This document shows positions 6,944 to 57,927 of a stretch of 64,000 nucleotides of DNA, piece after piece. Every line of letters begins with the position of its first letter. The first letter of the stretch is position 1. Source of the stretch: a virus. Taxonomy: Duplodnaviria > Caudoviricetes. The notes beneath the pieces were generated by a model. The model was not told the origin of the DNA and made no database searches. It was given only the letters and a program-made list of their open reading frames with translations. The DNA lies in IMG/VR virus record IMGVR_UViG_2824317532_000002, positions 1 to 64,000 of that record; one strand, written 5' to 3'. The position numbers and the translations under genes are program-made.

Positions 6944-7360
6944 CTAGTCCTCCTCGAGGCCGGCGCCGGAGATCACGGCGGAGATGGAATCCTGCAGTAC
7001 CTGCTCGATTTCGGGCCGGATCTCGGCGAGCGTCGGGTACACGTACCGGCCCTCGTTGATGAACGCCCTGGGCGCCGGCCGCCCCTTGACTCGCCCCTGG
7101 CCGCCGAAGTCCAACCAGGGGAAGTACGGGGCCTTCTTGCCGCCGACGGCAACGCGGGCGGAGGTGCGGGTGGACCGAGCCTTGAGGCTGGACCGGGCCG
7201 CCCCGGTGACAGCGGGGATCTTCGGGCGGGTTTTGGTGACGAGCAGTTCGGCGGCCTCGTTGAGCGCGAGGCGCAGTTGCTTCGGCGCTTCGCTGTCGAT
7301 CGCCCGGAGTCCGCGGTTGAGCTGAGCCAGGCCGGTGACGGCGATCCGCATCTCGGTCAC
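6944..7360 (-). CDS. HK97 gp10-like tail completion protein
   Basis: VTGLAQLNRGLR...PAVTGAARSSL...PYFPWLDFGG pattern. Confidence 0.7.
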   Translation of the reverse strand: MTEMRIAVTGLAQLNRGLRAIDSEAPKQLRLALNEAAELLVTKTRPKIPAVTGAARSSLKARSTRTSARVAVGGKKAPYFPWLDFGGQGRVKGRPAPRAFINEGRYVYPTLAEIRPEIEQVLQDSISAVISGAGLEED

Positions 7361-7363
7361 GAC

Positions 7364-7552
7364 TCACCTCCTGGACTGCTCCATCGCGAGTTCGCGTTCC
7401 TGATGGCGGCGCAGGAAGTAGATTCGCCAGCGCTGCCACTCCGCCGACGTCATTCCCCGGCGCATCTCCGTCACTGACCGCCATCCGAGCTTGAGGCACA
7501 GGAGGTGGTCGAATTCCAGGTCAGGACTCGTCTCGAAGCTCTCGTAGATCGC
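7364..7552 (-). CDS. Tail assembly chaperone gpT segment (reached by frameshift)
   Basis: Reads AIYESFETSPDLEFDHLLCLKLGWRSVTEMRRGMTSAEWQRWRIYF...; +1 frame relative to gpG. Confidence 0.7.
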   Translation of the reverse strand, partial: AIYESFETSPDLEFDHLLCLKLGWRSVTEMRRGMTSAEWQRWRIYFLRRHQERELAMEQSRR

Positions 7553-7874
7553 TTTTGTCGGCGTCCTCGCCGAGCCCGGACAGCCGCATGATCTCCCGTT
7601 CCACGCGGGCGAAGTCCGCGGACCGGCCGGGGGCCTTCTGCCACGCCTCGACCTGGCCGAGCGAGAGCGCCGGCTCGACCATGCCGTAGTGCACGATCTG
7701 GCCCTCGAACTGGTTGACGTCCGTCTCGCCGTTGCGCTGCGATTGCTTGCCGGCGAGCATGTACTCGTAGCGGGAGAGGCCGCGCACCCGGACGGTCTTG
7801 CCGCCGGCGAGTTCGACGGTGATGGACTCCGCCTCGCCGCCGGTGAGGTCTTCGAAGCTTGCGATCTCGCTCAT
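7521..7874 (-). CDS. Tail assembly chaperone gpG
   Basis: GKTVRVRGLSR, GMVEPALS; follows major tail protein. Confidence 0.75.
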   Translation of the reverse strand: MSEIASFEDLTGGEAESITVELAGGKTVRVRGLSRYEYMLAGKQSQRNGETDVNQFEGQIVHYGMVEPALSLGQVEAWQKAPGRSADFARVEREIMRLSGLGEDADKSDLRELRDES

Positions 7875-8272
7875 ACCTGGTCCGCCGAATCCCAGTCGTC
7901 GGACGGCTCGGTCTCCAGGGACCAGAGGCGGTAGCCGGCCACTGGGGCGGTCTCGACGTACTTCGTGATGATCGCGTCGAAGCTGTCCTGGGGCAGGCCG
8001 CTCCCGGTGCCCTCCGGCCGGTACTTGACGTTGACCTTCTGCCCGACCAGCGGCTTGAGTACCGCCCGCGGGCCGGTCGCGCCGTCGTCGTACTTGCCGG
8101 AGCAGGCGAACGCGCCGGTGAGCAGCGTCGGATCCTTCACGATGGCGTTCTTGCCGTACGTGGTGTTGTCCTCGGTGCCGGAACTCTGCTCGCAGTTGGA
8201 GTCCGTGCAGAACTCGGAGACGTTGTTGCCGTCGATCAGAATGACCGTCGACTTGGAGTGCTTGCGCGCCAC
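7871..8272 (-). CDS. Major tail (tube) protein
   Basis: EDNTTYG, YRPEGTGSGLP motifs; upstream of chaperone. Confidence 0.7.
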   Translation of the reverse strand: MARKHSKSTVILIDGNNVSEFCTDSNCEQSSGTEDNTTYGKNAIVKDPTLLTGAFACSGKYDDGATGPRAVLKPLVGQKVNVKYRPEGTGSGLPQDSFDAIITKYVETAPVAGYRLWSLETEPSDDWDSADQV

Positions 8273-8282
8273 GTCAGCCTCC

Positions 8283-8792
8283 TCAGGCGCTGGTGCCGAT
8301 GATGACGACGTCGTACGTCACCGAGGTGCCGGACGACGAGTTCGCGACGGTGAGCAGGTCTCCGGTCGACGCGGTGACGGTGACCTTGCCGTCAGCCGGA
8401 CAGGCCCACATGAAGACGCCACCGGGCGGGATGTCGATCCCATCACTGGCCGCCAGGAACAGCGGCACGCCGTTGCTCGCCGGCCGGGTGACCCGGACGT
8501 TGTTGGTATTGCTCGACGATGCGGAGATCAGGATCGCCCGCAGCTCGACGAACGTCAGCGTGTTGCCGAACGGGCCCGCCAGCACGCCGGCCAGGTCCAG
8601 ATCCTCACTCGACGAGGCGTTGATCGTCCGCTGGTCGTGGAACATCCGGTCCGCCGAGTTGGCGCCGGTGCCTTCCGACAGCTCGATCTTCGTCTTCTTG
8701 AGGAACGAATCGGTCGGCGTGCCGAGGTCAAGCACGTTCTTGTAGACGGCGTCGATCTGCGCCGTCACCACAGTTTTCAGCGTGGTGGCCAT
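8283..8792 (-). CDS. Structural protein of unknown function
   Basis: 169 aa Thr/Ser-rich beta protein inside the head-tail operon, with RBS. Confidence 0.6.
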   Translation of the reverse strand: MATTLKTVVTAQIDAVYKNVLDLGTPTDSFLKKTKIELSEGTGANSADRMFHDQRTINASSSEDLDLAGVLAGPFGNTLTFVELRAILISASSSNTNNVRVTRPASNGVPLFLAASDGIDIPPGGVFMWACPADGKVTVTASTGDLLTVANSSSGTSVTYDVVIIGTSA

Positions 8793-8801
8793 CGGCCCCT
8801 C

Positions 8802-9215
8802 CTAGTTGCCCGGTCCGGTGATATCGAGGTGAAAGGTCGCGCCGAGGTAGTCGGTGCCGCCGATCGTGACGACCTCGAACTCACAGCTGGCCACGGTCAC
8901 CTCGTCGCAGGACGTCCAGATGTGCGCCTCAAGCTGTTCGATGACCGACTGATCGCCGGTGTCCGAGCACCAGGCCGACACCTGATCGCGGGCGGACCGG
9001 TCGGTAACCCGCGACGACACGAGGGTCACCTCGACGTCCGGGTAGCTCGTCTCGCCGCGGCCGTAGGTCTGGTGATACTGGATCCCGGGCGGGACCGGAT
9101 AGTTGACGACCCCGGCCGGCGGAGTGACGGTCGACGCCGGGTAGGCCTGCACGCGCAGCCCGGTGACGGTGGCAAGCACGGTGGCCACCTCGTCCATGAC
9201 GTCGGCGAGGATCAT
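8802..9215 (-). CDS. Tail terminator-like protein
   Basis: TVTGLRVQAYPASTVTPPA..., DYLGATFHLDI; position. Confidence 0.6.
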   Translation of the reverse strand: MILADVMDEVATVLATVTGLRVQAYPASTVTPPAGVVNYPVPPGIQYHQTYGRGETSYPDVEVTLVSSRVTDRSARDQVSAWCSDTGDQSVIEQLEAHIWTSCDEVTVASCEFEVVTIGGTDYLGATFHLDITGPGN

Positions 9216-9808
9216 GCGAACCCCGGCAGTACATAGGGCGAGACGAGATCCTCGATGTCCGGGTCGAACCGAGAGACCCGGACGGGGCCCTCGTTCGCCC
9301 AGCCGGCCACACCTTCCGGCGAGTCGCGGCGCATGAATCGCCGATTCGCGAGCAGCAGTGTCGCCTCGGCGATCGGGTCCGGCACGGCCGGCCACCCCCA
9401 CAGCGCGGTGATCCGCCAGCGTCGGGAGGTGCACCACAGCCCGCGGTCGCGGCGCAGGCCGGTGATCGCCCGACTGTCGGCGAGGGCGTTGTCGGGCTCG
9501 GTGAAGTAGTCGGTGACCGCGGTCCAGGCGGATCCGTCACCGAGTTCGACGATCAGGCCCGTCGTTGAAGCGATGTCGTCGACGAGCAGCAGCTCCCCGT
9601 CGCCGTCGTCGCGGACGACCCGGCCGCGAGTGGCGCCGGTGCGGGCCGTGGCGGAGCCGTCGAGCCAGAACCGGCGGCCGGTGCGGTCGTCGATGGCCCG
9701 AGAGGCGCGGGTGAGCGCCTTGTTGAGCGCCGCGTCGTCGGCGGTGTCCGACAGTGGGATCTTCCGCGCGCCTTTGAGTTCGGCGAGGGTGGCGTATTCG
9801 TTGGCCAC
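9212..9808 (-). CDS. Head-to-tail adaptor
   Basis: YATLAELK...ASRAIDDRTGRRF...WGWPAVPDPIAEATLLLA. Confidence 0.85.
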   Translation of the reverse strand: MANEYATLAELKGARKIPLSDTADDAALNKALTRASRAIDDRTGRRFWLDGSATARTGATRGRVVRDDGDGELLLVDDIASTTGLIVELGDGSAWTAVTDYFTEPDNALADSRAITGLRRDRGLWCTSRRWRITALWGWPAVPDPIAEATLLLANRRFMRRDSPEGVAGWANEGPVRVSRFDPDIEDLVSPYVLPGFA

Positions 9809-37215: not shown

Positions 37216-37223
37216 GTACCCTG

Positions 37224-37297
37224 AGCCGCCTGTCGGAATCGAACCGACGACCTACGCATTACGAGTGCGTCGCTCTAGCCGACTGAGCTAAGGCGGC
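37224..37297 (-). tRNA. tRNA-Thr(CGT), probable integration target of prophage 1
   Basis: GCCGCCT acceptor stem, TAGCTCAGTCGG D arm, CT-CGT-AA anticodon loop, GGTTCGATTCC T arm; CCA not encoded. Confidence 0.97.
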
Positions 37298-39491: not shown

Positions 39492-41048
39492 ATGACGCCG
39501 CCGCAGATTAAGTCCAAGGCTCGGCTTCGGGCGATGCGCATCGGCCAGCCGGGCATGCAGGCGGCCATCCCTCGCGTGATCATCTACCTGCGGATGAGCC
39601 TCGACAAGACCGGCGAGGGCGCTGGCCTCGAACGGCAGGAGCAAGCATGTCGGGCACTCTGCCTGGCTCGCGGCTGGGAGGTAGTCGCCGTCGTCGAGGA
39701 CACGGTCTCGGCCACCGATTGGCGGCTCGCCGACCGGGCCGGCTGGTCGCAGGTGGTCACGGCGATCGAGGCCGGCGAAGCCGATCTGGTGGTTGCCTGG
39801 CACCTCGACCGAGTAACCCGCGACATGCGCGACCTCGAAGCACTGATCGAGCTTGCCATTGACAAGGGCATCGGTCTGGCCACCGCGACCGGCGACATCG
39901 ACCTCACGACCGACGTGGGCCGCATGGTGGCCCGCATCCTGGCCGCCGTTGCGACCGCCGAGGGTGAACGGAAAGCCGAGCGACAGATTCTGGCCAGCGA
40001 TCAGCGGGTCGCCCGGGGTAAGCCCAACTGGATTCGCCGCCCGTTCGGATTTAACAAGGATGGCACGCACGTTCCCGACGAGGCTGCCGCGATCAAGCAG
40101 GCGTACTACGACTTAGTCAAGGGCAAGGCGCTCACGGCCATCGCCGCGGACTGGAACGAGAAGGGATTCCGCACGAGCGCACCCAGCGAGGAGGAGGCCC
40201 GGCCACGGGCACCTCGTCAGCGCGCCTATAACCCTACCGGCCTGTGGGGCAACGTCGCAGTGAGGCTCCTACTACGCAACCCGCGCAACATGGGCATGAT
40301 CACCCTCTACGGGGAGATCATGGGCAAGGGTTCGTGGAAGCCGATCATCGACGAGGCGACCTTCCTCAAGGTTGACAAGCTTCTCGCGGACCGGCAGCGG
40401 CCCGAGTCCCTCAAGGGCAAGCTGGCCAACCTGCTTTCGGGCATCGCGGAATGCGGCGTGTGCGGCGGCCCGGTACAGGCGACCAAGCGAAACGATGAGC
40501 CGCTCTACACCTGCAAGGGCAACAAGTGGAAACCGGAGGAAGGCCGGGGCCACACGTCCCTCCCGCTCGACTATGCGGAGGGCCTGGTTCTGCGCCGGCT
40601 AGTAGAGCAGATGAAGCGAACGAATCGGGTGTCGTTCCATCCGATGCCGACTGGGGTTGACGTGAGTCCGCTGGAGGCGCGCGAGCGAGCGATTGACAAG
40701 CGGCTCAACGAGCTAATCGTGGAAGAGGTGACTGGCAAGATCACTCGCCAGCAGTTGCATGCGGGTACCGCAGAGCTGCGTCACGAACTGGCTGGCATTC
40801 AGATGGAGATCGCCAGGGCGGGCAGCTTCGGGCCGGTGAAGACCATCGACATCGAGGCGGCTTACGAGGAGTTCGGCGCCCTGGACTTGGGCGAGCAGCG
40901 TGGCATCCTCAGCGATGCGTTCCAGTTCATTCGGCTCATTCAGCGCGGACGGGGGCGGCCACGGGCCGGCGAGCCGATCTGGAAACCCGAGCACCTTGAA
41001 ACTGAGTTCACGCCCGAGTGGCAACGAGTGTTCGAGCCGAAAGCCTGA
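39492..41048 (+). CDS. int: Large serine integrase
   Basis: IYLRMS catalytic Ser, LDRVTRD, RPFGF, LLSGIAECGVCG zinc ribbon, coiled coil. Confidence 0.96.
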   Translation: MTPPQIKSKARLRAMRIGQPGMQAAIPRVIIYLRMSLDKTGEGAGLERQEQACRALCLARGWEVVAVVEDTVSATDWRLADRAGWSQVVTAIEAGEADLVVAWHLDRVTRDMRDLEALIELAIDKGIGLATATGDIDLTTDVGRMVARILAAVATAEGERKAERQILASDQRVARGKPNWIRRPFGFNKDGTHVPDEAAAIKQAYYDLVKGKALTAIAADWNEKGFRTSAPSEEEARPRAPRQRAYNPTGLWGNVAVRLLLRNPRNMGMITLYGEIMGKGSWKPIIDEATFLKVDKLLADRQRPESLKGKLANLLSGIAECGVCGGPVQATKRNDEPLYTCKGNKWKPEEGRGHTSLPLDYAEGLVLRRLVEQMKRTNRVSFHPMPTGVDVSPLEARERAIDKRLNELIVEEVTGKITRQQLHAGTAELRHELAGIQMEIARAGSFGPVKTIDIEAAYEEFGALDLGEQRGILSDAFQFIRLIQRGRGRPRAGEPIWKPEHLETEFTPEWQRVFEPKA

Positions 41049-42522: not shown

Positions 42523-43248
42523 TCACGGCGCAACGCGCCCGTGCTTGTTGAACGCGCGCCACGTGACAGGCATGAGGTCGGCGAAGTATTCCTCGACCTG
42601 CTGGGCGGCCCGATCGATTTCCCACAGCGGGTGCGTCGGGAAGTATCGCTCGGCGGTCGCCGTGGATCGAAGGCTCAGGAAGTTGAGCAGCGACCGAGCG
42701 TTGATCGTCCAGAAAAACGACGTGAACACGTTGACTGGGAGAACCTGCCGAGCAACTTCGCGGGCAGCCCCGGAGGCCAGGAGTGCCTCGTACCGGCGAT
42801 ACGATTCCGTCGAATTTTGCATGATCGTGCTGGCGACGACCTCGTGCAGTTCGTCGCCGCCGTCAACCAGCTCGTAGCTCGTTGCCTTGCCGATCTGCAT
42901 GGTGGGGCGCGCACGCGGCGGCACGTAGAACCGGGGTGCGAGCACCTTGTAGCGGGCGCTTTCCTCGTTGAACGAGGAGATCCGGTGTGTACGCCACTCG
43001 CGGATGACAAAGATCGGCGTCTCAATGAAGAACCGCAACGTGCAGTGCTCGAATGGCGTGCCGTGCCGATCGCGCATCAGGAAGCTGATGAAGCGGTCCG
43101 GGTCGGTTGCGGCGATACCCTGACGGCGCGCCTCGTCGATCAGGTTGACGCCTTGCGTGCTGACGCGGGCGGCCCTAATCACGTCGAGGTCGTCGGACAT
43201 GTGGTTGTCCAGCTCCACGGTGGAGTGCGTACGGAACTCGATGGTCAC
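42523..43248 (-). CDS. thyX: FAD-dependent thymidylate synthase
   Basis: AARVS, HGTPFEH, REWRTHRISSFNEESARY, REVARQVLP, NARSLLNFLSLR. Confidence 0.95.
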   Translation of the reverse strand: MTIEFRTHSTVELDNHMSDDLDVIRAARVSTQGVNLIDEARRQGIAATDPDRFISFLMRDRHGTPFEHCTLRFFIETPIFVIREWRTHRISSFNEESARYKVLAPRFYVPPRARPTMQIGKATSYELVDGGDELHEVVASTIMQNSTESYRRYEALLASGAAREVARQVLPVNVFTSFFWTINARSLLNFLSLRSTATAERYFPTHPLWEIDRAAQQVEEYFADLMPVTWRAFNKHGRVAP

Positions 43249-43706
43249 TAGAAGGACTCCGGGTCGGTATCGACGGTGTCGGGGGTCATCGGGACAGGCT
43301 CGGGTTGGTGCTTCTTCTTCACCCACGGAAGCCGGACGGCGGTGTAGCCGCGGGCGATGCTGGCGTTGCGGTAGCCGGACTCGATCACGCCGCAATCGGC
43401 CAGGGCATCGAGCAGCCGCTGATACTTCTCCCAGGTCATCGGCTTGTCGATGATTAGGTGGTTGTGCCCCTCGGTGCTGGAGGGGATTACCTGGACCGGC
43501 AGGTCGATGTCGAGCACGGGCTTGTGCAGTGGGCCGACAGCGGCCTCGACCGCCGGGTCGAGCGCCACCTTGGAGGTCATCACGTTGGCGTCATCGAGGG
43601 TGACGCCTTCGGTGGTGGGGCGGCTGTACTCCTCGCCGGTGTTGTGGTTGAAGTCGACGCGGCCATAGAGCTGACCGGCAAGCGGGGCCTGGAACGAGAC
43701 GTTCAC
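43248..43706 (-). CDS. Hypothetical protein with AEP-like motifs
   Basis: VLDID...SSTEGHNHL. Confidence 0.6.
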   Translation of the reverse strand: MNVSFQAPLAGQLYGRVDFNHNTGEEYSRPTTEGVTLDDANVMTSKVALDPAVEAAVGPLHKPVLDIDLPVQVIPSSTEGHNHLIIDKPMTWEKYQRLLDALADCGVIESGYRNASIARGYTAVRLPWVKKKHQPEPVPMTPDTVDTDPESF

Positions 43707-45687: not shown

Positions 45688-45723
45688 TGGCTCTCCTCGG
45701 TGTGCGTCGTGCTTGCGAGGACA

Positions 45724-45752
45724 AGACTACACACCGATGCCGCCCGTGTTAA
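45724..45752 (-). promoter_or_regulatory. Sigma70-type promoter overlapped by two 13-bp motifs
   Basis: TTAACA-N17-TAGTCT. Confidence 0.65.
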
Positions 45753-47733: not shown

Positions 47734-49131
47734 CTAGGCGGGTTGAGCAACCGCCTCCCCCAGAGCCTCGGCGACGACCTTGAGCACTGGCTCCCACGAG
47801 TCGACGGCGTGCCCGGCCGCCAGGACTACGTTCACGGTTCGGCTCCTCGATGGCGTGGTCACTTGGAAGGCGGCCCCCAGCGACTGGCGGGCGGTATTCA
47901 AGGCCACGCGCACCTCCGTGCCGAGCGCCCGCGTGGGGCTACCGATCCGCAGGTCGAACGTGAAGCCGTCGACCTCGCCCCGACCGGCCACGCTCACCGT
48001 GTTCAGTCGCGCCACCGGCTCCGGGGTCGACGCCTTGCGCTGGTCCGGCACCGTCGACTTCTTCGGGCCGGGCATCGCAGGCTTCGGCGGGACGGTCATC
48101 TTCCCCGCCTTCGGCTTGGGGGCCGCCTTCGGTTTCGCGGCCGGCTTGGACCTGGTCGAGACTTCGGCCTTGGACGCCTCGGCCAGGTGGCGTGTTGCGA
48201 ACCACGTCACCTGGCTCAGGATCTGACTTTCGGCCAGCTCGCGATCGAAGTCCTTGCAGGAGCACTTCCAGTGGTACAGCGGGACGTAGGTCAGGGCTCC
48301 GGCGTCGTCGTAGCCGGATACGGCCAGGCTCTGAGTCATGACCAGCTTGTGACCCGGGATCGGCTCGAACTTCGGCAGAACCTCGCGGGCAGGCTTCGCG
48401 GGCGTCGGCTCGGTCCCGGCAGCCTGCTGCGTCTCCACGAGGTGGCCGTGGCTCATCAGGTGCCGGGCAGCCTGCCGGGCGGCCTGGCCTGCGTAGTACA
48501 CGGTCTCGCGCTCCTGCGCCTTCGCGCCGCATTCGCACCGCCAGGTATGCCCGTCTGCCCAGTCGTTGAACTGGATCCCGCCGAAGACTTCGACCCGGTG
48601 CCCCGGCTCAATACGGAGCTTCCAAATCCTGTTCTCGCCAGCGGGCAGACCGCAACTGGCGTCGTCTGCGATTTCAGCGAAAGCCTCAGTCTCCGTGACA
48701 TACACGGGCACGGGGTAGCACCCGGCGATCACCGCTTCGGGGTCGAGGTCATGGCGCAGCTTTGCCCACACCTCAGTCACGACGGTGACCGGCTCGGGTT
48801 CCGACTCGGCCGACATGACCTCCAGACCGGGCAGGGCCTCCGGCTCGACCGGCTCGACCGGCTCGACCGGCGCGGCTGGCGCGGCTGGGGCCCGCTGGCC
48901 CATTTGCCGGATGTACCGCGCGGTGTCGAATTCGATTCCGATACCGGCCGCCCACGCTCCAGCCTCAGTGGTCACGTACTGGCCGGATTCTTCGGCCTCG
49001 ATCCACTCGGCGACAATGCACGCCGCGATGGTGGAGTCGCGCGGTCGGGTCAGCTTGGCGCTCTCGTGTCCGGCGTACCGCAGGATCGCGTTTCGCTGCG
49101 CCGGGGTCGGCTTCCTGGCGATCGTTCCCAT
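47734..49131 (-). CDS. Hypothetical multidomain early protein
   Basis: Two WxCxC...H zinc-like motifs, PVE tandem linker, Lys/Pro linker. Confidence 0.7.
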   Translation of the reverse strand: MGTIARKPTPAQRNAILRYAGHESAKLTRPRDSTIAACIVAEWIEAEESGQYVTTEAGAWAAGIGIEFDTARYIRQMGQRAPAAPAAPVEPVEPVEPEALPGLEVMSAESEPEPVTVVTEVWAKLRHDLDPEAVIAGCYPVPVYVTETEAFAEIADDASCGLPAGENRIWKLRIEPGHRVEVFGGIQFNDWADGHTWRCECGAKAQERETVYYAGQAARQAARHLMSHGHLVETQQAAGTEPTPAKPAREVLPKFEPIPGHKLVMTQSLAVSGYDDAGALTYVPLYHWKCSCKDFDRELAESQILSQVTWFATRHLAEASKAEVSTRSKPAAKPKAAPKPKAGKMTVPPKPAMPGPKKSTVPDQRKASTPEPVARLNTVSVAGRGEVDGFTFDLRIGSPTRALGTEVRVALNTARQSLGAAFQVTTPSRSRTVNVVLAAGHAVDSWEPVLKVVAEALGEAVAQPA

Positions 49132-49159: not shown

Positions 49160-49483
49160 CTACTCCTTGCGAGTGCGCTCTTCCGCGCACACCTCGCGCC
49201 ACTGCTCGATAACCTGGCCACGCAGGATCGTCAGGCCGGAAACCATGTCGTCGAGCGTGTCGATCAAGTGGCTCAGCGCGTCTGATCGGTTCTCCGGGTA
49301 CTCGCCCGCCTCCCTGGCGCGCAGTGTCGCGTTCTCGCCAGGCTTGCGGTCCGGCGGCGACACGTACACCGTGCCCGACACATCCCAGATGCCCTGGAGC
49401 GTCGCCGCGCCAGCACGGACCGCGCGCAGGACTTTCAGGATGTGGCGACGACTCGCGGCACGCGGGCTACCGGAACGGCTCAC
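49160..49483 (-). CDS. Hypothetical early protein
   Basis: GTGA overlap with upstream gene. Confidence 0.55.
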   Translation of the reverse strand: MSRSGSPRAASRRHILKVLRAVRAGAATLQGIWDVSGTVYVSPPDRKPGENATLRAREAGEYPENRSDALSHLIDTLDDMVSGLTILRGQVIEQWREVCAEERTRKE

Positions 49484-49836
49484 CGGGTCACGCCCACGGC
49501 GTCAGCGATCACGAGCAGGTCATCGGCCGTACGGTGGTCGAGCCAGACGACGCTGTACGCCAAACCCAGGTCATGCGTGCAGTCACCGTCAAGGCGCGAC
49601 GGACCGTAGACGGTACCCTCACGGTCGCGCTCCACCATGAGATCAATCTCCAGCGCGGCCGGAGCGCATGACTGCGGACCTTCCGGGTCTTCCGGATTGT
49701 TCGGCATCCATGCCAGTTCGCCGCGCTCCAGCTCGGCACGCAAGTACTCCCACGCCTCACGGGCAGTGTCGAATACCGGCGGCTCGTCATCCATCGGCAG
49801 GTAGCCAGGGATGTTCACGTAGGCAGTAAATGACAT
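49480..49836 (-). CDS. Acidic early protein
   Basis: NIPGYLPMDDEPPVFDT..EAW; RBS. Confidence 0.7.
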   Translation of the reverse strand: MSFTAYVNIPGYLPMDDEPPVFDTAREAWEYLRAELERGELAWMPNNPEDPEGPQSCAPAALEIDLMVERDREGTVYGPSRLDGDCTHDLGLAYSVVWLDHRTADDLLVIADAVGVTR

Positions 49837-49865
49837 TGCATTCCCTCTCTGCGGGCATTCTTACG

Positions 49866-49918
49866 TGCCCCGGGCAGGGATCGAACCTGCATTCGCACGC
49901 CTGTTGTGCGCCCGGGGC
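49866..49918 (-). ncRNA. D-arm-less tRNA-like element
   Basis: GCCCCGG-G-CGCAC(AACAGGC)GTGCG-AAT-GCAGG(TTCGATC)CCTGC-CCGGGGC-A. Confidence 0.7.
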
Positions 49919-49923
49919 CAACA

Positions 49924-50283
49924 TCAGTTGTCGAGCAGCAAATCGGTCATGTCATCGGGCTCCGGCAGGTAGTGCGCGCCAAGCGCATCGCGCGTGTCGG
50001 CACTAGACAGGCTCAGCGCGTCCGTAAGGATGGCCTTCCACCACTCATCCATCGGCGCTTCTTCCAGCCATTCCGAGAGCAGGTTCGCGACCGCGATTCC
50101 AACCACGCGCACGCAGTCGGAATAGTCGGCACCGTGCGCATAGGCCGCCCGGTATGCATCCTGGCTCGGCGGGACTGATCCCATGTCGTTAACGATTGCC
50201 TCCTGCGCGGCTTCCGTGATCGCGTAGTAGCGCGCGAAGTCATTGTTGTCAGCGATAAGTGTCACGGCGTCAATGAGACTCAT
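49924..50283 (-). CDS. Acidic early protein
   Basis: 119 aa, Asp/Glu-rich; GAGAGG RBS. Confidence 0.7.
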   Translation of the reverse strand: MSLIDAVTLIADNNDFARYYAITEAAQEAIVNDMGSVPPSQDAYRAAYAHGADYSDCVRVVGIAVANLLSEWLEEAPMDEWWKAILTDALSLSSADTRDALGAHYLPEPDDMTDLLLDN

Positions 50284-50343
50284 TGGGGTTTCCTCTCAGC
50301 ATTGCCCACGGAATGCAGGCAGGGGGGTGAAGGCGAATTCGGA

Positions 50344-50715
50344 TCAGTACTGCGGAAGGTCTTTCCAGCCGTCCACATCTTTGCCGCCGTCCGTGACGAA
50401 ACGGTGTTCCAGGTAAGCGAGCATCGCCGTGCGAATCGCAAGGTCCGATTCGGTAGGGTCGCCATGCGGAGAATCCATCCACCAGCCAAAGAGGGATTCG
50501 TCCATGTAATCCACTGGCGTTGCGAATTGATCCTCAGCGTGGTTGAAGTCGTATGGGAAGGCAAAGTTTCCTGTGCTGTCAAACCAGCAGGAAGCCCAGT
50601 TCCACGTGTAGGCGTGCGCGAACTGGCGCGCGGCGCGATCGGAAATGATGGCGTCATTCGCGTTAGCCTCGCGAGCCTCAGCCAGCGACCAGCTACTCAC
50701 GTGCGCATTTCCCAT
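50344..50715 (-). CDS. Acidic aromatic-rich early protein
   Basis: 123 aa, many D/E and W/F. Confidence 0.7.
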   Translation of the reverse strand: MGNAHVSSWSLAEAREANANDAIISDRAARQFAHAYTWNWASCWFDSTGNFAFPYDFNHAEDQFATPVDYMDESLFGWWMDSPHGDPTESDLAIRTAMLAYLEHRFVTDGGKDVDGWKDLPQY

Positions 50716-50746
50716 TAGGCCGTTCCGTTCTCTCGGTATTGCGGAG

Positions 50747-50794
50747 TGCCGTACCGGGCCATGACACCCGTGCCCGCCTACGCGGGAGTACGGC
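50747..50794 (-). ncRNA. Second tRNA-like three-way junction
   Basis: GCCGTAC-T-CCCGC(GTAG)GCGGG-CA-CGGGT(GTCATG)GCCCG-GTACGGC-A. Confidence 0.55.
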
Positions 50795-50800
50795 CGTGAA

Positions 50801-51178
50801 TCATTCGCGCGACATCTGAGCGGAGTAGTTCAGGAACGTTTGGCCAGACATGCCCGTGCCGTACCGGCTGGCGCAGTTCGGGCAGAGGTAGTAGCCATCG
50901 GCCGGAACGCTGTCGATGAACACGCGCGCCGGAATGGTGCGGAACCGTGCCGTGTCCATGTGGCAAATGAGGCACAGCTCGCCGCGCTCACCGCTCTTCG
51001 CATAGAACGCCAGCGTTTCCACCAGGGTCCATGCCGCACGATGAGCCTCTTCGCAGGTCCACAGGTACGCGTTCCGGTCCTGGGGCAGGCCCGTCTCGTC
51101 GGCCTTCCGCGCAGCTCTACTGATCTTGAGATCCCAGAGGTCCCGTAGGTCAACAATCAAACGCAATTCAGGGGTCAT
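50801..51178 (-). CDS. Zn-finger early protein
   Basis: CLIC...LCPNC; GGAG RBS. Confidence 0.65.
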   Translation of the reverse strand: MTPELRLIVDLRDLWDLKISRAARKADETGLPQDRNAYLWTCEEAHRAAWTLVETLAFYAKSGERGELCLICHMDTARFRTIPARVFIDSVPADGYYLCPNCASRYGTGMSGQTFLNYSAQMSRE

Positions 51179-51242
51179 GGTAAGACTCCATTTCGTGAGG
51201 GAGGAATTGCAGGGGGAAGTGCCTCGGATCTCAGTCCGTGAG

Positions 51243-51317
51243 TGGCAGGCCATCATCGGGCACGGAATGCCAATCCGCGCGACGGTATGACCCGTTTCCG
51301 GGTCCACCGTTTCGGCC
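51243..51317 (-). ncRNA. Type II hammerhead ribozyme (variant core, pseudoknot)
   Basis: GGCC-GAAA-stem III-GUC-stem I-CCGAUGA-U-GGCC-UGCCA; three helices pair and loop I is complementary to the 3' tail. Confidence 0.85.
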
Positions 51318-51323
51318 GTGAAA

Positions 51324-51971
51324 TCAGACCAGCGCGGGTCGTCCGAGCGATTTCCGCTTGAGGTTGCGAAGCGAGATCAGTAGGAACTTCTCGGCCGAGT
51401 CACCCCAGATCACATCGTTACCGGAACACTCCGGGTAGAAGTCGTCCTCGCTCACCGCCTGCCAGAAACCCTGTTCGATTTCCTCGCGAGTGAATTCGTC
51501 CGCCACTTCCTGCCACCACTCCGGAAGGTCGGAGTACAGATCGGCGAACAGGTAGCCGCTGAATGACTCGTGAGCAGCCTCGTATTCAAGCTCACTCAAG
51601 TCGGACTCGTCGTAAACCGGGTACTGCTCTTTCAGGCCGATGACCGTGTTGATCAGGCGATCCGAAACCGAGTGCAGGAAGAACCCGAGTCCGTCGCACC
51701 CGGTGTATCCGACACGAAAGAACGCCATGCCGTAATCGCGCTCCAAGCTGCGGAAGTTGCTGATCTCCCAGAATGAGACCTGTCCCGCCCAATCCTCAGA
51801 GATCGCGCCGTCCACCTCGACAAACGGGCGCTCCGTCTCGTCGTAAGCGAACGGGTGAGCGTAAGCGGAGTGAATCCGGCCCTTCTCGTAAACGTCGGCC
51901 GGATCGGCGTAGCGCACGCTGAAACCAGCGCGCTTCAAATCGTCGATACGCTCTGCAAGCTTGACGTTCAT
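51324..51971 (-). CDS. Highly acidic first early protein
   Basis: 215 aa; YPVYDESDLSELEYE; first gene after the leftward promoter. Confidence 0.75.
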   Translation of the reverse strand: MNVKLAERIDDLKRAGFSVRYADPADVYEKGRIHSAYAHPFAYDETERPFVEVDGAISEDWAGQVSFWEISNFRSLERDYGMAFFRVGYTGCDGLGFFLHSVSDRLINTVIGLKEQYPVYDESDLSELEYEAAHESFSGYLFADLYSDLPEWWQEVADEFTREEIEQGFWQAVSEDDFYPECSGNDVIWGDSAEKFLLISLRNLKRKSLGRPALV

Positions 51972-52042
51972 GCCCTGCCTTTCGGGTGCTGAGTAAACAC
52001 TAGGCTCGCTCGGTTCGCTGCGCTGCCGAACCGATGGGAAGA

Positions 52043-52071
52043 ACGCTAGTCCAGGACAAGACTAAACACAA
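52043..52071 (-). promoter_or_regulatory. Putative major early leftward promoter with operator in the spacer
   Basis: TTGTGT-N17-TAGCGT; 13-bp motif at 52057-52069; 5' hairpin TCGGTTCG/CGAACCGA. Confidence 0.6.
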
Positions 52072-52394
52072 GTCCGGGGTGGAACTTTCTTGTTTTCCCT
52101 GCTCAGAACGCCTGTCAGGCGCTGGGACGCGAGGCCTGCGCGCCCATGGGCACGGCTACCAGGCAGAGGCGTTCGCCCCGCCCGTGAACGTCACGCTGCG
52201 GTCCGCTCGCGCCTCCGCACGTGTAGCCGTGACCCTCGCATGCGTGCGCGCGCCTGCGTGCCTCTCAGGTCCACGGGTGCCCATGCAGCGGCGAGGTGCC
52301 CTAGTCGCATGACACAGCCGGCATCTCACTGGCCTAGTCACTAGGACAGTAGTCATCTGACAGCTTGCCGTATCCCAGCGTGACTCACCCGTTA

Positions 52395-52470
52395 CCGGGG
52401 GTATGACCCCCTGCGAGCTGGGACGCTCACCGGCCGTGGCTAGCACCTGAGATTCTGCCACGGTTCCAAA
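52395..52470. other. Candidate cos site of prophage 2 (near CGGCCGTGGCT, 52431-52441)
   Basis: Lies between divergent arms after GGGGGTATGACCCCC; resemblance to cluster A/BD end sequences is from memory only. Confidence 0.35.
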
Positions 52471-52989
52471 GTCGCCCAAGACGCGACGAAGCGCCGCCAC
52501 CCGATGGGCAACGGCGCTGGTCAGACAGTGTTCCGGCGGCGAGCTAGTCCTCGTACATGGCTGCCCGGTTCGCCTCCTGAAATTCCTCCTGGCTGAGGTC
52601 GCCGGCAAGGTGCATGCCCAGGGTTGTGTAGGTGACGTGAGCGACTTCCAGGCGCTGCATCACCGATCAGCCCGTGATGGTCTCTCATGTTCTTACCTGG
52701 CTGCCCGACCTACGCGGCCACGGTACCAAGGCCGATCCGTCCTGTAAGTGAACGAGGCCAGGACGATTGCGGTGTATGGCCGGTTGGTCTCATCGAAGGA
52801 AGCGGCTCCCATAGGACATGACTATACACGACCGGGGCCTTCGGCCCCACGAGCGGGTTAGCCGGCTAGCAAGGGATTCCGCTGCCTTCTCTTCGCCGAT
52901 GCATGGGGCCTCCGGCCCCTGTGGGTTTCCTTCGCCGCTGGGCGATCACATGGCTGGTTCTCTTGGAAGGGTTCAAGAGCATGGTTTGG

Positions 52990-53163
52990 GTGCACTCCAC
53001 TGCACCCCGGTTACGAACTAGAGTTCACCCCGGTCAGGAACTACAGTGCACCCCGGTTGCCGGACCGGGGTGAATCCCACTGCACCCCTGTGGATAAACC
53101 GGGGTGAACTGCGCTGCACCCCGCCTGAGCTGCGAAAACAAGCCGGGGTGAACTGGAGTGCAC
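52990..53163. repeat. CACCCC(GGT) iteron-like array with DnaA box
   Basis: Direct copies at 53003, 53026, 53049 (23-bp period), inverted copies, TGTGGATAA at 53089-53097. Confidence 0.7.
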
Positions 53164-53491
53164 CTCGGTCTGCCGCCGACGCAATCCCGGGGTCGTGACC
53201 TGAACCACAGCCAACCTCCGTTAGCCCGAGCTGAACCCGTACTACTAGTGAAGGGGTTAACCAGTAAGCCTGCTGACCAGCTAGCCAACTACCGAGCTAG
53301 CCCAGTAGAGAGCTAGGAAGTTAGAGAGCTTGGATCTGACGAGCCAACCCGCTGACCCGGTTGGAAGTTGGAGAGATGAAGAGCTTGGATCTAACCCGCT
53401 AGCCGGTTAACCCCAGCAGACCAGGTCTCGGGTCTACGCCTACGGGCAAACGTAGCCGAGACCTACAGCAAGACAGTACTGGTGGTGACTC

Positions 53492-53809
53492 GTGGGCAAC
53501 GGCAGATGGCAAGGTAGTGATCGCCGGCAGCGACTCCCCCAGAACTGGCCATCCATTCAGCGACGCATTCTCAAGAACGCTGAATTCCGGTGCACCGTGA
53601 GAACCGAGGGGAAACGGTGCACCGAGCAGGCGACGGAAGTCGACCACATTCGTGCTGGTGACGATCATCGAGATTCCAACCTGAGAGCTATCTGCGGATG
53701 GCATCACCAGCAGAAATCATCCCGTGAAGGCGGGGAGGCGTACGCCGCGAACCGGCGACGCCAGGCCGCCAAGTTCAAGCGCACAGAGGCACACCCCGGC
53801 CTGCTGTAG
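53492..53809 (+). CDS. HNH endonuclease
   Basis: ATEVDHI..GDDH..SNLRAICGWHH. Confidence 0.9.
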   Translation: MGNGRWQGSDRRQRLPQNWPSIQRRILKNAEFRCTVRTEGKRCTEQATEVDHIRAGDDHRDSNLRAICGWHHQQKSSREGGEAYAANRRRQAAKFKRTEAHPGLL

Positions 53810-53901
53810 CGCTGCGGCGAGGGTCGAGGGCTCTCCCCTTGCTGCTTGTGCCCCAGCTCGCCCCTCTCCGAGCTGGGGCCTTCAACGTTTCCGGAGGTGC
53901 C

Positions 53902-56478: not shown

Positions 56479-57927
56479 TTGTCCGTTACGACGGCTGACT
56501 CTGCCCTCGCCCAGGCTAAGGAGCTGCTCCGGATCATCCACAAGGATCGTCCCCGGTTGCAGCGAATCGACCGGTACGAGCGTGGCGATCACGATGACCC
56601 GTACATGCCGCCCCATGCGAGCGACGAGTACCGGCTGCTCGCGAAGCGGTCGGTGTCGAACTGGATGGGCGTACTCATCTCGACGCCGGTCCAGGCGATG
56701 TACGTCGACAACTTCCGGCGCGGCCAGGCTGCCGTGCGTGGCAGCGACGGGGCGGCGCTTCCGGAGTGGACGCACTGGCAGAACAGCCGGCTCGACGCCC
56801 GGCAGACCTCGGTGCACCGGGGCGCGGTGAAGTTTGGGCACTCCTTCACGATCACCGAGAAGACCGACAAGGGCACCCGCACCAAGGGTCTGAGCGCCCT
56901 GAACACCTCGGCCCTCTGGGAAGATCCGGCCAACGATGACGCCCCGGTGGTCGCGCTGACGATCACCCAGGAGGCGGCCGAAGGCAGCCGCGGCAAGGCC
57001 CGCATGTGGGACGGCGCTCTCGAGTACGAGGTGACGTTCGGCGCGCTGCTCGACGACGACAGCCTGACGGTCACGGAAGTCGGGAAGCACGGCAACAGCG
57101 AATGCCCGGTGACCCGGTTCGCCGCGCACATCGATCTCGAAGGCCGCACGGTCGGCGTGGTCGAGCCGCTGATCCCACTGCAAGACCGCATCAATCAAAC
57201 CATTATGGACTTGCTGGTCGCACAGTCCTATACCGCCCATGTGGTGCGTTATACGACCGGTATGGCGCCGCCGCTCAAGATGGTGCCAGTCAAGGACGAG
57301 TCCGGCGAGGTCGTCGACTGGCAGCCCGAGCGCGGCCCGGACGGACGGCCGATCCCAGCGAACATCAACGTCAACTCGTCGCGGTTCCTGTTCGCCGAGG
57401 ACCCGGACGTGCGGTTCGGCAGCCTCGAAGGCGGCCCGTTGTCGGGGTTCATCGAGTCGATCGACATGAGCATTCGCCACCTGGCCGCGATCGGCCAGAT
57501 GCCCCCGCACCACCTGCTGGGGCAGATCGCGAACCTGTCAGCGGAGGCCCTCCTGGCTGCAGAGACGGCGTTGAGCCGCAAGGTCGAAGAGTTCCGCAAG
57601 CTCATGGGCGAAGCCTGGGAACGCGTGTTCCGCCTGGCCGCCGAGCTTGAGGGTGTCGAGGCTTCCGCCCTGGACTACTCCGGCGAGGTCATCTGGCGCG
57701 ACATGGAGATGCGTTCACTCGCTCAGTCCGCCGATGGTCTCGGCAAGCTTCGCGAGCAGCTCGCCATCCCGGTCAAGGGCCTCTGGGCCCGGGTGCCCGG
57801 CGTGACCAAGAACGAGCTGGACCAATGGTCAGCGCTGGCCGAACAGGAGAATGCCGACCTGCAGCTCGTCGACGCGCTGCTCCGGTCGACCGGTGAGGAC
57901 CCGGCCGATGGCCGCGAGTCGCGCTGA
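56479..57927 (+). CDS. Portal protein (SPP1 gp6-like)
   Basis: PLQDRINQT, NLSAEALLAAE, GEAWERVFRLA. Confidence 0.93.
   Translation: MSVTTADSALAQAKELLRIIHKDRPRLQRIDRYERGDHDDPYMPPHASDEYRLLAKRSVSNWMGVLISTPVQAMYVDNFRRGQAAVRGSDGAALPEWTHWQNSRLDARQTSVHRGAVKFGHSFTITEKTDKGTRTKGLSALNTSALWEDPANDDAPVVALTITQEAAEGSRGKARMWDGALEYEVTFGALLDDDSLTVTEVGKHGNSECPVTRFAAHIDLEGRTVGVVEPLIPLQDRINQTIMDLLVAQSYTAHVVRYTTGMAPPLKMVPVKDESGEVVDWQPERGPDGRPIPANINVNSSRFLFAEDPDVRFGSLEGGPLSGFIESIDMSIRHLAAIGQMPPHHLLGQIANLSAEALLAAETALSRKVEEFRKLMGEAWERVFRLAAELEGVEASALDYSGEVIWRDMEMRSLAQSADGLGKLREQLAIPVKGLWARVPGVTKNELDQWSALAEQENADLQLVDALLRSTGEDPADGRESR

What the first reader, a model, noticed from the sequence alone, without database searches (positions are those of the whole stretch)
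49840..52075. Early phage operon punctuated by a ribozyme and tRNA-like elements: candidate RNA-processing system
Seen: downstream of the putative early promoter (~52.05 kb, minus strand), three of the four spacers between the first five genes hold a compact structured RNA a few nt after the stop codon. These are a hammerhead (51243-51317) and two tRNA-like junctions (50747-50794, 49866-49918). Two spacers begin alike, TGA-TT(T)CACGGCCG. Four of the five proteins are strongly acidic. Inference: the first transcript made on infection or induction is cut into gene-sized units by self-cleavage plus host RNase P/RNase Z, functionally like RNase III processing of the T7 early mRNA, and may release small tRNA mimics. 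I do not know of this mixed architecture being described in actinophages.
Basis: partly seen in the sequence, partly recalled or inferred. Interest (0 to 1): 0.88.

Follow-up and report, generated by a model that had tools for sequence, protein, structure and literature searches.

The report
Hammerhead plus mini-tRNAs punctuate prophage operon
Three of the four gaps between the first five genes of an Actinoplanes prophage hold a small folded RNA: a genuine but slightly off-consensus self-cutting hammerhead, a shrunken tRNA look-alike, and a second junction of the same shape. These probably chop one long early message into single-gene pieces, but no cut has been shown.

Summary
At 51317-51243 (minus) lies a type II hammerhead. 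A covariance model built only from ten hammerheads of Streptomyces phage VieEnRose scores it 33.9 bits (E 2e-5). It misses Rfam's cut-off (15.9 vs 37 bits) because position 4 is C, not U, and one U follows A9. Both deviations recur in phage hammerheads: 7 of 246 and 38 of 246.

At 49918-49866 lies a 53-nt tRNA-derived element with a perfect acceptor stem and canonical T arm, but no D arm and no U33. At 50794-50747 lies a junction of the same topology without a T-loop consensus. Such compact junctions are rare.

No cleavage was tested and no RNA run exists. Nothing shows covariation for the two junctions.

Hammerhead clusters flanking single prophage genes have been known since 2011 (PMC3088659), so that part is not new. 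I did not find the hammerhead plus mini-tRNA mix in print. This scan has noted the same mix on other DNA (e1-6020673).

Relatives put different elements in equivalent gaps: a hammerhead in VieEnRose, a T-arm element in genome G384, a truncated tRNA in L025, or nothing.

Verdict: a real, modestly novel variant of a known arrangement.

The parts
51243..51317 (-). Type II hammerhead ribozyme, core variant. Stem II strands are 51317-51314 and 51251-48. G12-A14 is 51313-11. Stem III is 51310-51282 with a GAAA tetraloop. C17 is at 51281, and the predicted cut lies between 51281 and 51280. The stem I hairpin is 51280-51260. The core CCGAUGA is 51259-53, with C at position 4 = 51258. There is an extra U at 51252. 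The tail UGCCA at 51247-43 is complementary to the loop UGGCA at 51272-68.
50747..50794 (-). Compact three-way junction of tRNA-like topology. The outer stem is 50794-88 / 50754-48. The linker is U. Hairpin CCCGC-GUAG-GCGGG is 50786-73. The linker is CA. Hairpin CGGG-UGUCAUGG-CCCG at 50770-55 is flush with the outer 3' strand. A follows at 50747. There is no T-loop consensus.
   Evidence: No Rfam match.
49866..49918 (-). 53-nt D-arm-less mini-tRNA. The acceptor is 49918-12 / 49873-67. The linker is G. Hairpin CGCAC-AACAGGC-GUGCG is 49910-49894. The linker is AAU. The T arm is 49890-74 with loop UUCGAUC. The discriminator is A49866. No CCA is encoded.
50284..50343 (-). Spacer 3 (gp3-gp4), with no notable structure.
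   Evidence: z 0.03. (no junction).
51324..51971 (-). gp1, an acidic 215-aa protein of unknown function. Its homologs in other phages and prophages also lie next to hammerheads.
   Evidence: Model pLDDT 86 with no PDB match.
50801..51175 (-). gp2, 124 aa, with no homolog found.
50344..50715 (-). gp3, acidic, 123 aa.
49924..50283 (-). gp4, acidic, 119 aa.
49480..49836 (-). gp5, acidic, 118 aa. It is 45% identical to VieEnRose gp71.
52054..52070 (-). Copy of the repeated motif GTGTnTAGTCWTGTCCT upstream of gp1. It may be a promoter -10 region or a repressor site.
   Evidence: No consensus promoter.

Best explanation
The leftward early operon belongs to a serine-integrase prophage of Actinoplanes campanulatus. 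It is transcribed as a polycistronic RNA and is probably cut in three of its first four intercistronic gaps by two routes.

(1) The type II hammerhead after gp1 self-cleaves 3' of C51281. This leaves gp1 mRNA ending in the stem III hairpin with a cyclic phosphate. The gp2 mRNA then starts with the stem I hairpin and a 5'-OH. The C at core position 4 probably makes it slower than consensus hammerheads.

(2) The mini-tRNA after gp4, and less certainly the junction of the same shape after gp2, are taken for pre-tRNAs by host RNase P and RNase Z. RNase P would cut 5' of G49918 / G50794. RNase Z, or exonucleases, would act 3' of A49866 / A50747. This would release 29-31-nt leaders carrying the next gene's ribosome-binding site, and possibly a free ~50-nt tRNA mimic.

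Shown here: the identity and family of the hammerhead, the tRNA ancestry of the 49.9-kb element, and the rarity of the junction architecture.

Inferred: all cleavages, co-transcription, and any benefit such as uncoupled stability or translation of the early genes.
For: Hammerhead:
- Independent model R1 gives 33.9 bits, E 2e-5, and is the sole hit in the phage region.
- It aligns column for column with the VieEnRose hammerheads.
- My descriptor found 246 type II hammerheads in 1.29 Mb of held loci and 0 in a Markov null of equal size. Of those 246, 7 have C4, 0 have A4 or G4, and 38 have one nucleotide inserted after A9.
- Perreault 2011 states that a U4C viroid variant still supports infectivity. 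It also reports that clustered prophage hammerheads cleave in vitro and in vivo.

Context:
- Serine integrase 39492-41048, ThyX 42523-43395 and portal 56479-57927.
- Relatives carrying gp1 or gp5 homologs are hammerhead-rich: VieEnRose has 11, G384 has 3, and L009 and L002 have one each upstream of the gp1 homolog.

Mini-tRNA:
- 12 of 12 Watson-Crick pairs in the acceptor plus T stems, and a UUCGAUC loop.
- Its T arm matches annotated phage tRNAs.

Junction architecture:
- Only these two hits in 211.5 kb on both strands, both on the sense strand.
- 1 hit per 600 kb of random sequence.
- 3 hits in 1.10 Mb on both strands of hammerhead-bearing viral contigs.

Equivalent gaps in relatives:
- A hammerhead before VieEnRose gp71.
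- A T-arm element straight after the G384 gp1 homolog.
- A tRNA with a truncated anticodon arm 22 nt before a start codon in L025. It scores 38.4 bits with Rfam tRNA, and ARAGORN calls none.
Against: - No RNA data are available.
- The hammerhead fails Rfam's cut-off (15.9 vs 37 bits). It is invisible to the whole-window and 2.9-kb scans.
- U4C 'considerably decreases activity in vitro'.
- The hammerhead ends 67 nt before the gp2 start. The VieEnRose hammerheads abut the ribosome-binding site.
- Spacer folding energies are ordinary (z -0.8 to -1.2).
- The junction thresholds were set after seeing the two elements, so the rarity figures are post hoc.
- No relative of either junction was found. 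All 5 of 5 pattern hits in viral contigs were not tRNA-like.
- No mini-tRNA was found in 1.1 Mb of hammerhead-bearing contigs. The one scanner hit lacked an acceptor helix in its fold.
- Three gp5-homolog loci have short empty spacers.
- The spacers after gp1 homologs in L006 and L009 have hairpins but no hammerhead.
- The G384 element has an imperfect acceptor, as a decaying tRNA would.
- Spacer 2 lacks a T-loop consensus, and its minimum-energy fold uses a different outer helix.
Confidence: 0.5

Rival explanations
1. Relics and plain hairpins. The hammerhead is a decaying copy that no longer cleaves at a useful rate. The 49.9-kb element is a tRNA gene that lost its D arm. The 50.8-kb junction is just a stable GC-rich fold. 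At most they act as 3'-end hairpins that slow exonucleases or pause transcription.
For: U4C plus an insertion in one ribozyme occurs in 1 of 246, and the Rfam score is low. Phage tRNA remnants exist: Gordonia phage Keelan has a T-arm fragment inside its tRNA cluster, and G384 has an imperfect acceptor. The elements are not kept at homologous spacers. Folding z-scores are ordinary.
Against: All helices of all three elements are intact. Spacer 2 has lost any T-loop sequence yet keeps 16 perfect pairs, which points to selection on shape. C4 is the only position-4 variant seen, 7 against 0 for A or G. C4 is also reported as tolerated in vivo. Both junctions lie on the sense strand, 5-6 nt after a stop and 29-31 nt before a start.
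Confidence: 0.27
2. tRNA mimics with a job of their own. In this reading the two junctions are made in order to be released as small RNAs. They would bind or distract host tRNA-handling proteins, such as the CCA-adding enzyme, modification enzymes, or tRNA-targeting defence nucleases. mRNA processing would be a side effect.
For: The topology and the G-1 / G1-C72 / C2-G71 / C3-G70 / A73 / C74 ends are shared by both elements, although the rest of their sequences differ. There is no U33 and no normal anticodon loop, so decoding is excluded. The neighbouring genes are small acidic early proteins of the kind often linked to counter-defence. That link is my inference. No family match was found.
Against: No conserved family was found. 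There is no linked enzyme gene. The positions are exactly intercistronic.
Confidence: 0.13
3. Chance resemblance: none of the three is a functional or ancestral RNA element.
For: Very many windows were read, so near-misses to small motifs will turn up. Perreault 2011 warns of chance hammerhead matches in large databases.
Against: E is 2e-5 with an independent model. There were 0 descriptor hits in a 2.6-Mb null. Three rare structures fall within 1.5 kb, all on the sense strand and all just after stop codons.
Confidence: 0.03

Closest known systems
Clustered hammerhead ribozymes flanking single genes in prophages (Perreault et al. 2011, PMC3088659; passages and section 8 read)
   Same: A type II hammerhead with a loop I-tail pseudoknot, lying between small genes of a prophage operon. 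The proposed role is cutting long phage transcripts into gene-length mRNAs. Slower core variants are noted in phages.
   Different: There is only one hammerhead here, with C4 plus an insertion after A9. The neighbouring gaps hold tRNA-shaped junctions instead of further ribozymes.
Hammerhead array of Streptomyces phage VieEnRose
   Same: An actinophage with a leftward operon of small genes, a gp5 homolog, the same ribozyme subtype, and a loop ..UGGCA.. paired to a tail.
   Different: VieEnRose has 11 consensus hammerheads that abut the ribosome-binding sites, and no mini-tRNA.
Natural U4C hammerhead of a viroid (as cited in the discussion of PMC3088659; the primary paper was not read)
   Same: The same core substitution. 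It is reported as weak in vitro yet sufficient in vivo.
   Different: That one is a viroid replication ribozyme, not a phage mRNA element.
t-elements of plant mitochondria and the mitochondrial tRNA-punctuation model (Forner et al. 2007, PMC1920247, abstract seen in a search listing; punctuation model recalled)
   Same: tRNA-like folds that are not tRNAs lie next to coding regions and are used by RNase P / RNase Z to make mRNA ends.
   Different: Those act in an organelle, not a phage. Cleavage is shown there and only inferred here.
mascRNA-type and tmRNA-type tRNA mimics (recalled)
   Same: An acceptor stem plus T arm without a decoding anticodon, excised by tRNA-processing enzymes.
   Different: They differ in kingdom and architecture. 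The element here keeps a 17-nt middle hairpin and has no CCA.
RNase III processing of phage T7 early mRNA (recalled)
   Same: An early polycistronic phage transcript is cut between cistrons.
   Different: The signals there are long irregular hairpins cut by RNase III. None is seen here.

Membership tests
Type II hammerhead ribozyme (Rfam RF02276) | Three helices around the core, with stem II open (type II permutation) | tested here: met
   Stem II has 4 bp, stem III 5+6 bp, and stem I 6 bp.
Type II hammerhead ribozyme (Rfam RF02276) | Core G12-A13-A14, the A15.1-U16.1 pair, and an NUH cleavage triplet | tested here: met
   GAAA at 51313-10, U51282, and triplet GUC ending at 51281.
Type II hammerhead ribozyme (Rfam RF02276) | Core C3-U4-G5-A6-N7-G8-A9, directly followed by stem II | tested here: inconclusive
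   6 of 7 positions match; position 4 is C, and one U follows A9. C4 is seen in 7 of 246 phage hammerheads and the insertion in 38 of 246. U4C is reported as viable in vivo. I therefore file it as a core-variant member, not a consensus member.
Type II hammerhead ribozyme (Rfam RF02276) | Tertiary pseudoknot between the stem I loop and the 3' tail | tested here: met
   UGGCA 51272-68 against UGCCA 51247-43. This is the same place as UGG..GCCA in the Rfam and VieEnRose consensus. There is no covariation test for this copy.
Type II hammerhead ribozyme (Rfam RF02276) | Score at or above Rfam's gathering cut-off (37 bits) | tested here: not met
   15.9 bits. My own clade-specific model gives 33.9 bits, E 2e-5.
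Type II hammerhead ribozyme (Rfam RF02276) | Self-cleavage | not testable with these tools
   No RNA run is held.
tRNA (Rfam RF00005) | Cloverleaf with a D arm, a 7-nt anticodon loop with U33, and a score over the cut-off | tested here: not met
   There is no D arm, the loop is AACAGGC, ARAGORN makes no call, and the best clan score is 13.2 bits. It is not a tRNA.
tRNA-like processing elements (t-element / mascRNA kind) | A 7-bp acceptor stacked on a 5-bp T stem, with a T loop (U54..A58, G53-C61) and an unpaired discriminator | tested here: met
   Met for 49918-49866.
tRNA-like processing elements (t-element / mascRNA kind) | The same feature, tested for the 50794-50747 junction | tested here: inconclusive
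   The stems stack (7 + 4 or 5 bp) and A follows. However, the loop UGUCAUGG is 8 nt and keeps only the U..A of the T-loop consensus.
tRNA-like processing elements (t-element / mascRNA kind) | Cleavage by RNase P and RNase Z | not testable with these tools
   No data.
RNase III sites of T7-type early mRNA | A hairpin of about 20 bp with an internal loop between cistrons | tested here: not met
   The folds show no such hairpin in the four spacers. This is an analogy only.

The most novel reading that the evidence does not exclude
Actinophage operons may use interchangeable 'punctuation cassettes'. A self-cleaving type II hammerhead and a host-processed mini-tRNA are both open-stem three-way junctions, and they can replace each other in equivalent gaps. 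The window shows a hammerhead after gp1 and a mini-tRNA before gp5. G384 shows a T-arm element after its gp1 homolog. VieEnRose shows a hammerhead before its gp5 homolog. Spacer 2 starts with the same 13 nt as the hammerhead spacer, but the core strands are replaced by a paired GUAC/GUAC. It could be a snapshot of a conversion from one cassette type to the other.
Probability: 0.25. Interest if true: 0.72.

Novelty: new variant of a known kind. Interest (0 to 1): 0.5.

Why it matters
If the cuts occur, this prophage uses a ribozyme and the host's tRNA-maturation enzymes side by side to split one early message. That would extend the 2011 picture of ribozyme-punctuated phage operons. It would also bring the organellar 'tRNA punctuation' idea into phage biology. 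The system is easy to test: one cultivable, non-pathogenic actinomycete, three sites and predicted nucleotides. The U4C count (7 of 246, with no A or G) also suggests that consensus-only searches under-count phage hammerheads. If the cuts do not occur, the locus is still a clean example of how ribozymes and tRNA genes decay in phage spacers.

Tried and rejected
- Rfam at gathering score on the whole window gave only the host tRNA-Thr. The 2.9-kb E<=10 scan gave only a chance snoRNA match.
- Spacer 2 has no Rfam family at E<=10, so twister, pistol, hatchet and HDV readings were dropped.
- ARAGORN in mitochondrial and relaxed modes did not call either junction.
- The att-site reading of the mini-tRNA was rejected. 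The integrase (39492-41048) and the host tRNA-Thr (37223-37297) lie 9-12 kb away.
- gp1-gp6 have no Pfam family. gp1 alone has a weak PHROG of unknown function. The gp1 model (pLDDT 86) has no PDB match at E<=0.001, so an ArdA-like reading was not supported.
- Relatives: gp1 has no match in cultured phages. gp2, gp3 and gp4 have no relatives in viral contigs.
- The MAFFT alignment of the spacers after gp1 homologs was uninformative.
- The two-sequence alignment of the junctions was out of register, so no covariance model was built from it.
- My loop-tail complementarity script missed the window's copy and gave mixed results for VieEnRose. I do not use it.
- The first loose mini-tRNA scanner gave 0.43 hits per random 64 kb, so it is not used as a significance test.
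- No RNA holder is listed for this stretch.
- Supplements of PMC3088659 (figures S6, S7 on core variants) are closed. They may list U4 variants that were tested.
Full report
**Where we are.** The window is identical to a contig of Actinoplanes campanulatus JCM 3059. Bases ~39.4-64 kb are a prophage:
- a serine integrase at 39492-41048;
- a long minus-strand operon from 51971 down to ~41008 that includes ThyX;
- a plus-strand structural arm with an SPP1-type portal.

The finding concerns the first five genes of the minus-strand operon. None of them has a Pfam family. Four of the five are acidic, with pI 4.05-4.40; gp2 has pI 6.12.

**The hammerhead.** Standard scans see nothing here. Rfam at gathering score over the window reports only the host tRNA-Thr. 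A 2.9-kb scan at E<=10 reports no ribozyme. Restricted to 111 nt, Rfam's Hammerhead_II model aligns end to end at 51317-51240, but at 15.9 bits against a cut-off of 37.

Read directly, the sequence has these features in order:
- GGCC;
- GAAA;
- a two-tier stem III closed by a GAAA tetraloop;
- GUC;
- a 6-bp stem I with loop AUUGGCAUU;
- CCGAUGA;
- an extra U;
- GGCC;
- a tail UGCCA complementary to the loop's UGGCA.

The only departures from consensus are C at position 4 and the U after A9.

**Independent test of the hammerhead.** The decisive evidence came from a relative. gp5 is 45% identical to gp71 of Streptomyces phage VieEnRose. The 73-nt gap in front of gp71 is a textbook type II hammerhead. 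The whole VieEnRose record has 10 Hammerhead_II matches, 8 above Rfam's cut-off, all on the operon strand between genes.

I built a model from those ten alone. It found:
- an eleventh VieEnRose copy;
- the window's element at 33.9 bits, E 2e-5 over 137 kb;
- one hammerhead upstream of the gp1 homolog in metagenome contig L009;
- one hammerhead upstream of the gp1 homolog in a Kribbella genome, L002.

With filters off, nothing else in 38-64 kb exceeds 14.3 bits. The window's copy aligns column for column with the VieEnRose set.

**Are the two deviations tolerable?** I wrote a structural descriptor: GAAA, stem III of at least 4 bp, UH, stem I of at least 5 bp, CNGANGA, 0-1 inserted nt, and a 3-bp stem II. 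I ran it over 1.29 Mb of held loci. These were mostly 120 viral contigs fetched with a consensus hammerhead pattern, so consensus copies are over-represented.

The descriptor found 246 hammerheads, and 0 in a Markov null of the same number of strand-bases. They split as follows:

| Position 4 | Insertion after A9 | Count |
|---|---|---|
| U | none | 202 |
| U | one nucleotide | 37 |
| C | none | 6 |
| C | one nucleotide | 1 (the window's) |
| A or G | either | 0 |

The inserted nucleotide is U or A in the printed examples. Three of the six C4 copies are the same sequence on related contigs. The insertion is therefore a common subtype. C is the only alternative seen at position 4.

Perreault et al. 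2011 state that a U4C variant 'considerably decreases activity in vitro' yet suffices for viroid infectivity. I conclude that this is a genuine, probably slow, hammerhead. Self-cleavage remains inferred.

**The mini-tRNA.** At 49918-49866 the layout is:
- a 7-bp acceptor;
- G;
- a 5-bp hairpin with a 7-nt loop;
- AAU;
- a 5-bp T stem with loop UUCGAUC;
- the acceptor 3' strand;
- A.

Every pair is Watson-Crick. Its T arm and acceptor resemble annotated tRNAs of many actinophages. The element lacks a D arm, U33 and an encoded CCA. ARAGORN and Rfam do not call it. It is tRNA-derived but is not a tRNA.

It lies 5 nt after the gp4 stop and 29 nt before the gp5 start. That is the gap which holds a hammerhead in VieEnRose.

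**The second junction.** At 50794-50747 the topology is the same:
- a 7-bp outer stem;
- U;
- a 5-bp hairpin;
- CA;
- a 4-bp hairpin flush with the outer 3' strand;
- A.

The sequence is otherwise different, and the loop is not a T-loop consensus.

A scan for this architecture, requiring perfect pairs, gave these results:
- 0 of 3000 random 85-mers and 0 of 3000 shuffles;
- only these two sites in 211.5 kb on both strands;
- 1 per 600 kb of random sequence;
- 3 in 1.10 Mb on both strands of hammerhead-bearing viral contigs, of which one was the antisense of a hammerhead and one was AT-rich low complexity.

The thresholds were fitted after the fact, so the numbers are indicative only. The minimum-energy fold of spacer 2 also prefers a different outer helix.

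**Relatives.** Conservation at homologous positions is absent.
- Three viral contigs with gp5 homologs have short empty spacers.
- The spacers after gp1 homologs in L006 and L009 have hairpins but no hammerhead.
- No close relative of the mini-tRNA exists in IMG/VR. All 5 of 5 pattern hits were not tRNA-like.
- No canonical mini-tRNA turned up in the 1.1 Mb of hammerhead-bearing contigs.

Against that, tRNA-derived non-tRNAs do recur in spacers of this gene neighbourhood:
- L025 has a tRNA with a 12-nt stump for an anticodon arm, 22 nt before a start codon. It scores 38.4 bits with Rfam tRNA, and ARAGORN calls none.
- Genome G384 was the one other hit among the 401 Actinomycetia-class genomes searched, besides the centre genome G001. 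Directly after its gp1 homolog it has a canonical T arm with a 5-bp acceptor. Three consensus hammerheads follow in later gaps.

**Reading.** The elements behave like movable spacer modules rather than fixed parts of particular genes. [quoted passage not shown] The best-supported mechanism is intercistronic cutting by self-cleavage plus host tRNA-processing enzymes, at 0.5. The main rival is that the modules are decaying relics acting at most as hairpins, at 0.27.

**Novelty.** Hammerhead punctuation of prophage operons is published (PMC3088659). I found no paper in the held library that describes tRNA-like elements alternating with hammerheads in phage operons, or hammerheads in Streptomyces phages. 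Subscription journals are largely absent from that library. Earlier notes of this scan report the same mix on other DNA (e1-6020673). They also report mini-tRNA families between phage genes (e1-6069331, e1-6047295). I treated these as leads only.

Noticed in passing
L013 (VieEnRose ON526983 42339-48436) plus L016 and L019: Eleven type II hammerheads lie in the leftward operon of a cultured Streptomyces phage, and none is annotated in the record. Four of them follow directly on a conserved GTGTGATAGTGT motif, which may be a promoter -10.
   Followed up: partly
window 52054-52070, 45719-45735, 52814-52830 (minus): A 17-nt motif GTGTnTAGTCWTGTCCT occurs in three minus-strand copies. There were 4 matches to its 11-nt core against 0.34 expected. 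Another first-reader note calls it stoperator-like, with more copies (e1-6252192).
   Followed up: partly
L154 (G384:C6) 6596-9525, minus strand: A second actinobacterial prophage has a gp1 homolog, a T-arm element right after it, and three consensus hammerheads. It also has its own repeated motif ACTAGTGAGA in front of the spacer elements.
   Followed up: partly
L025 4809-4876: A tRNA-like element has its anticodon arm cut down to 12 nt. It scores 38.4 bits with Rfam tRNA, and ARAGORN makes no call. It sits between genes of a viral contig that carries a gp5 homolog.
   Followed up: partly
L076 2721-4653, minus strand: Two hammerheads lie inside an array of ten tRNA genes on the same strand. 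One ends 3 nt before a tRNA-Asn. This was seen in 1 of 120 hammerhead-bearing viral contigs.
   Followed up: no
L077, L091, L109, L111, L114 (coordinates): Six further hammerheads have C at core position 4 and intact helices. L077 has two of them, 300 nt apart.
   Followed up: no
window 48442-48521 (minus): A weak hammerhead-model hit (14.3 bits, E 0.14-0.71) has CUGAUGAGCC but GCA in place of GAAA. It lies inside the 495-aa ORF 49221-47734. It is either chance or a dead copy.
   Followed up: no
window 51972-53838: About 1.9 kb lies between the divergent arms with no ORF of coding-like GC3, apart from an HNH-type ORF at 53492-53809. It probably holds regulatory and packaging sites.
   Followed up: no
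window 37223-37297 and 1-37 kb: The host tRNA-Thr(CGT) has no encoded CCA. Other first-reader notes treat 1-37 kb as a separate prophage.
   Followed up: no
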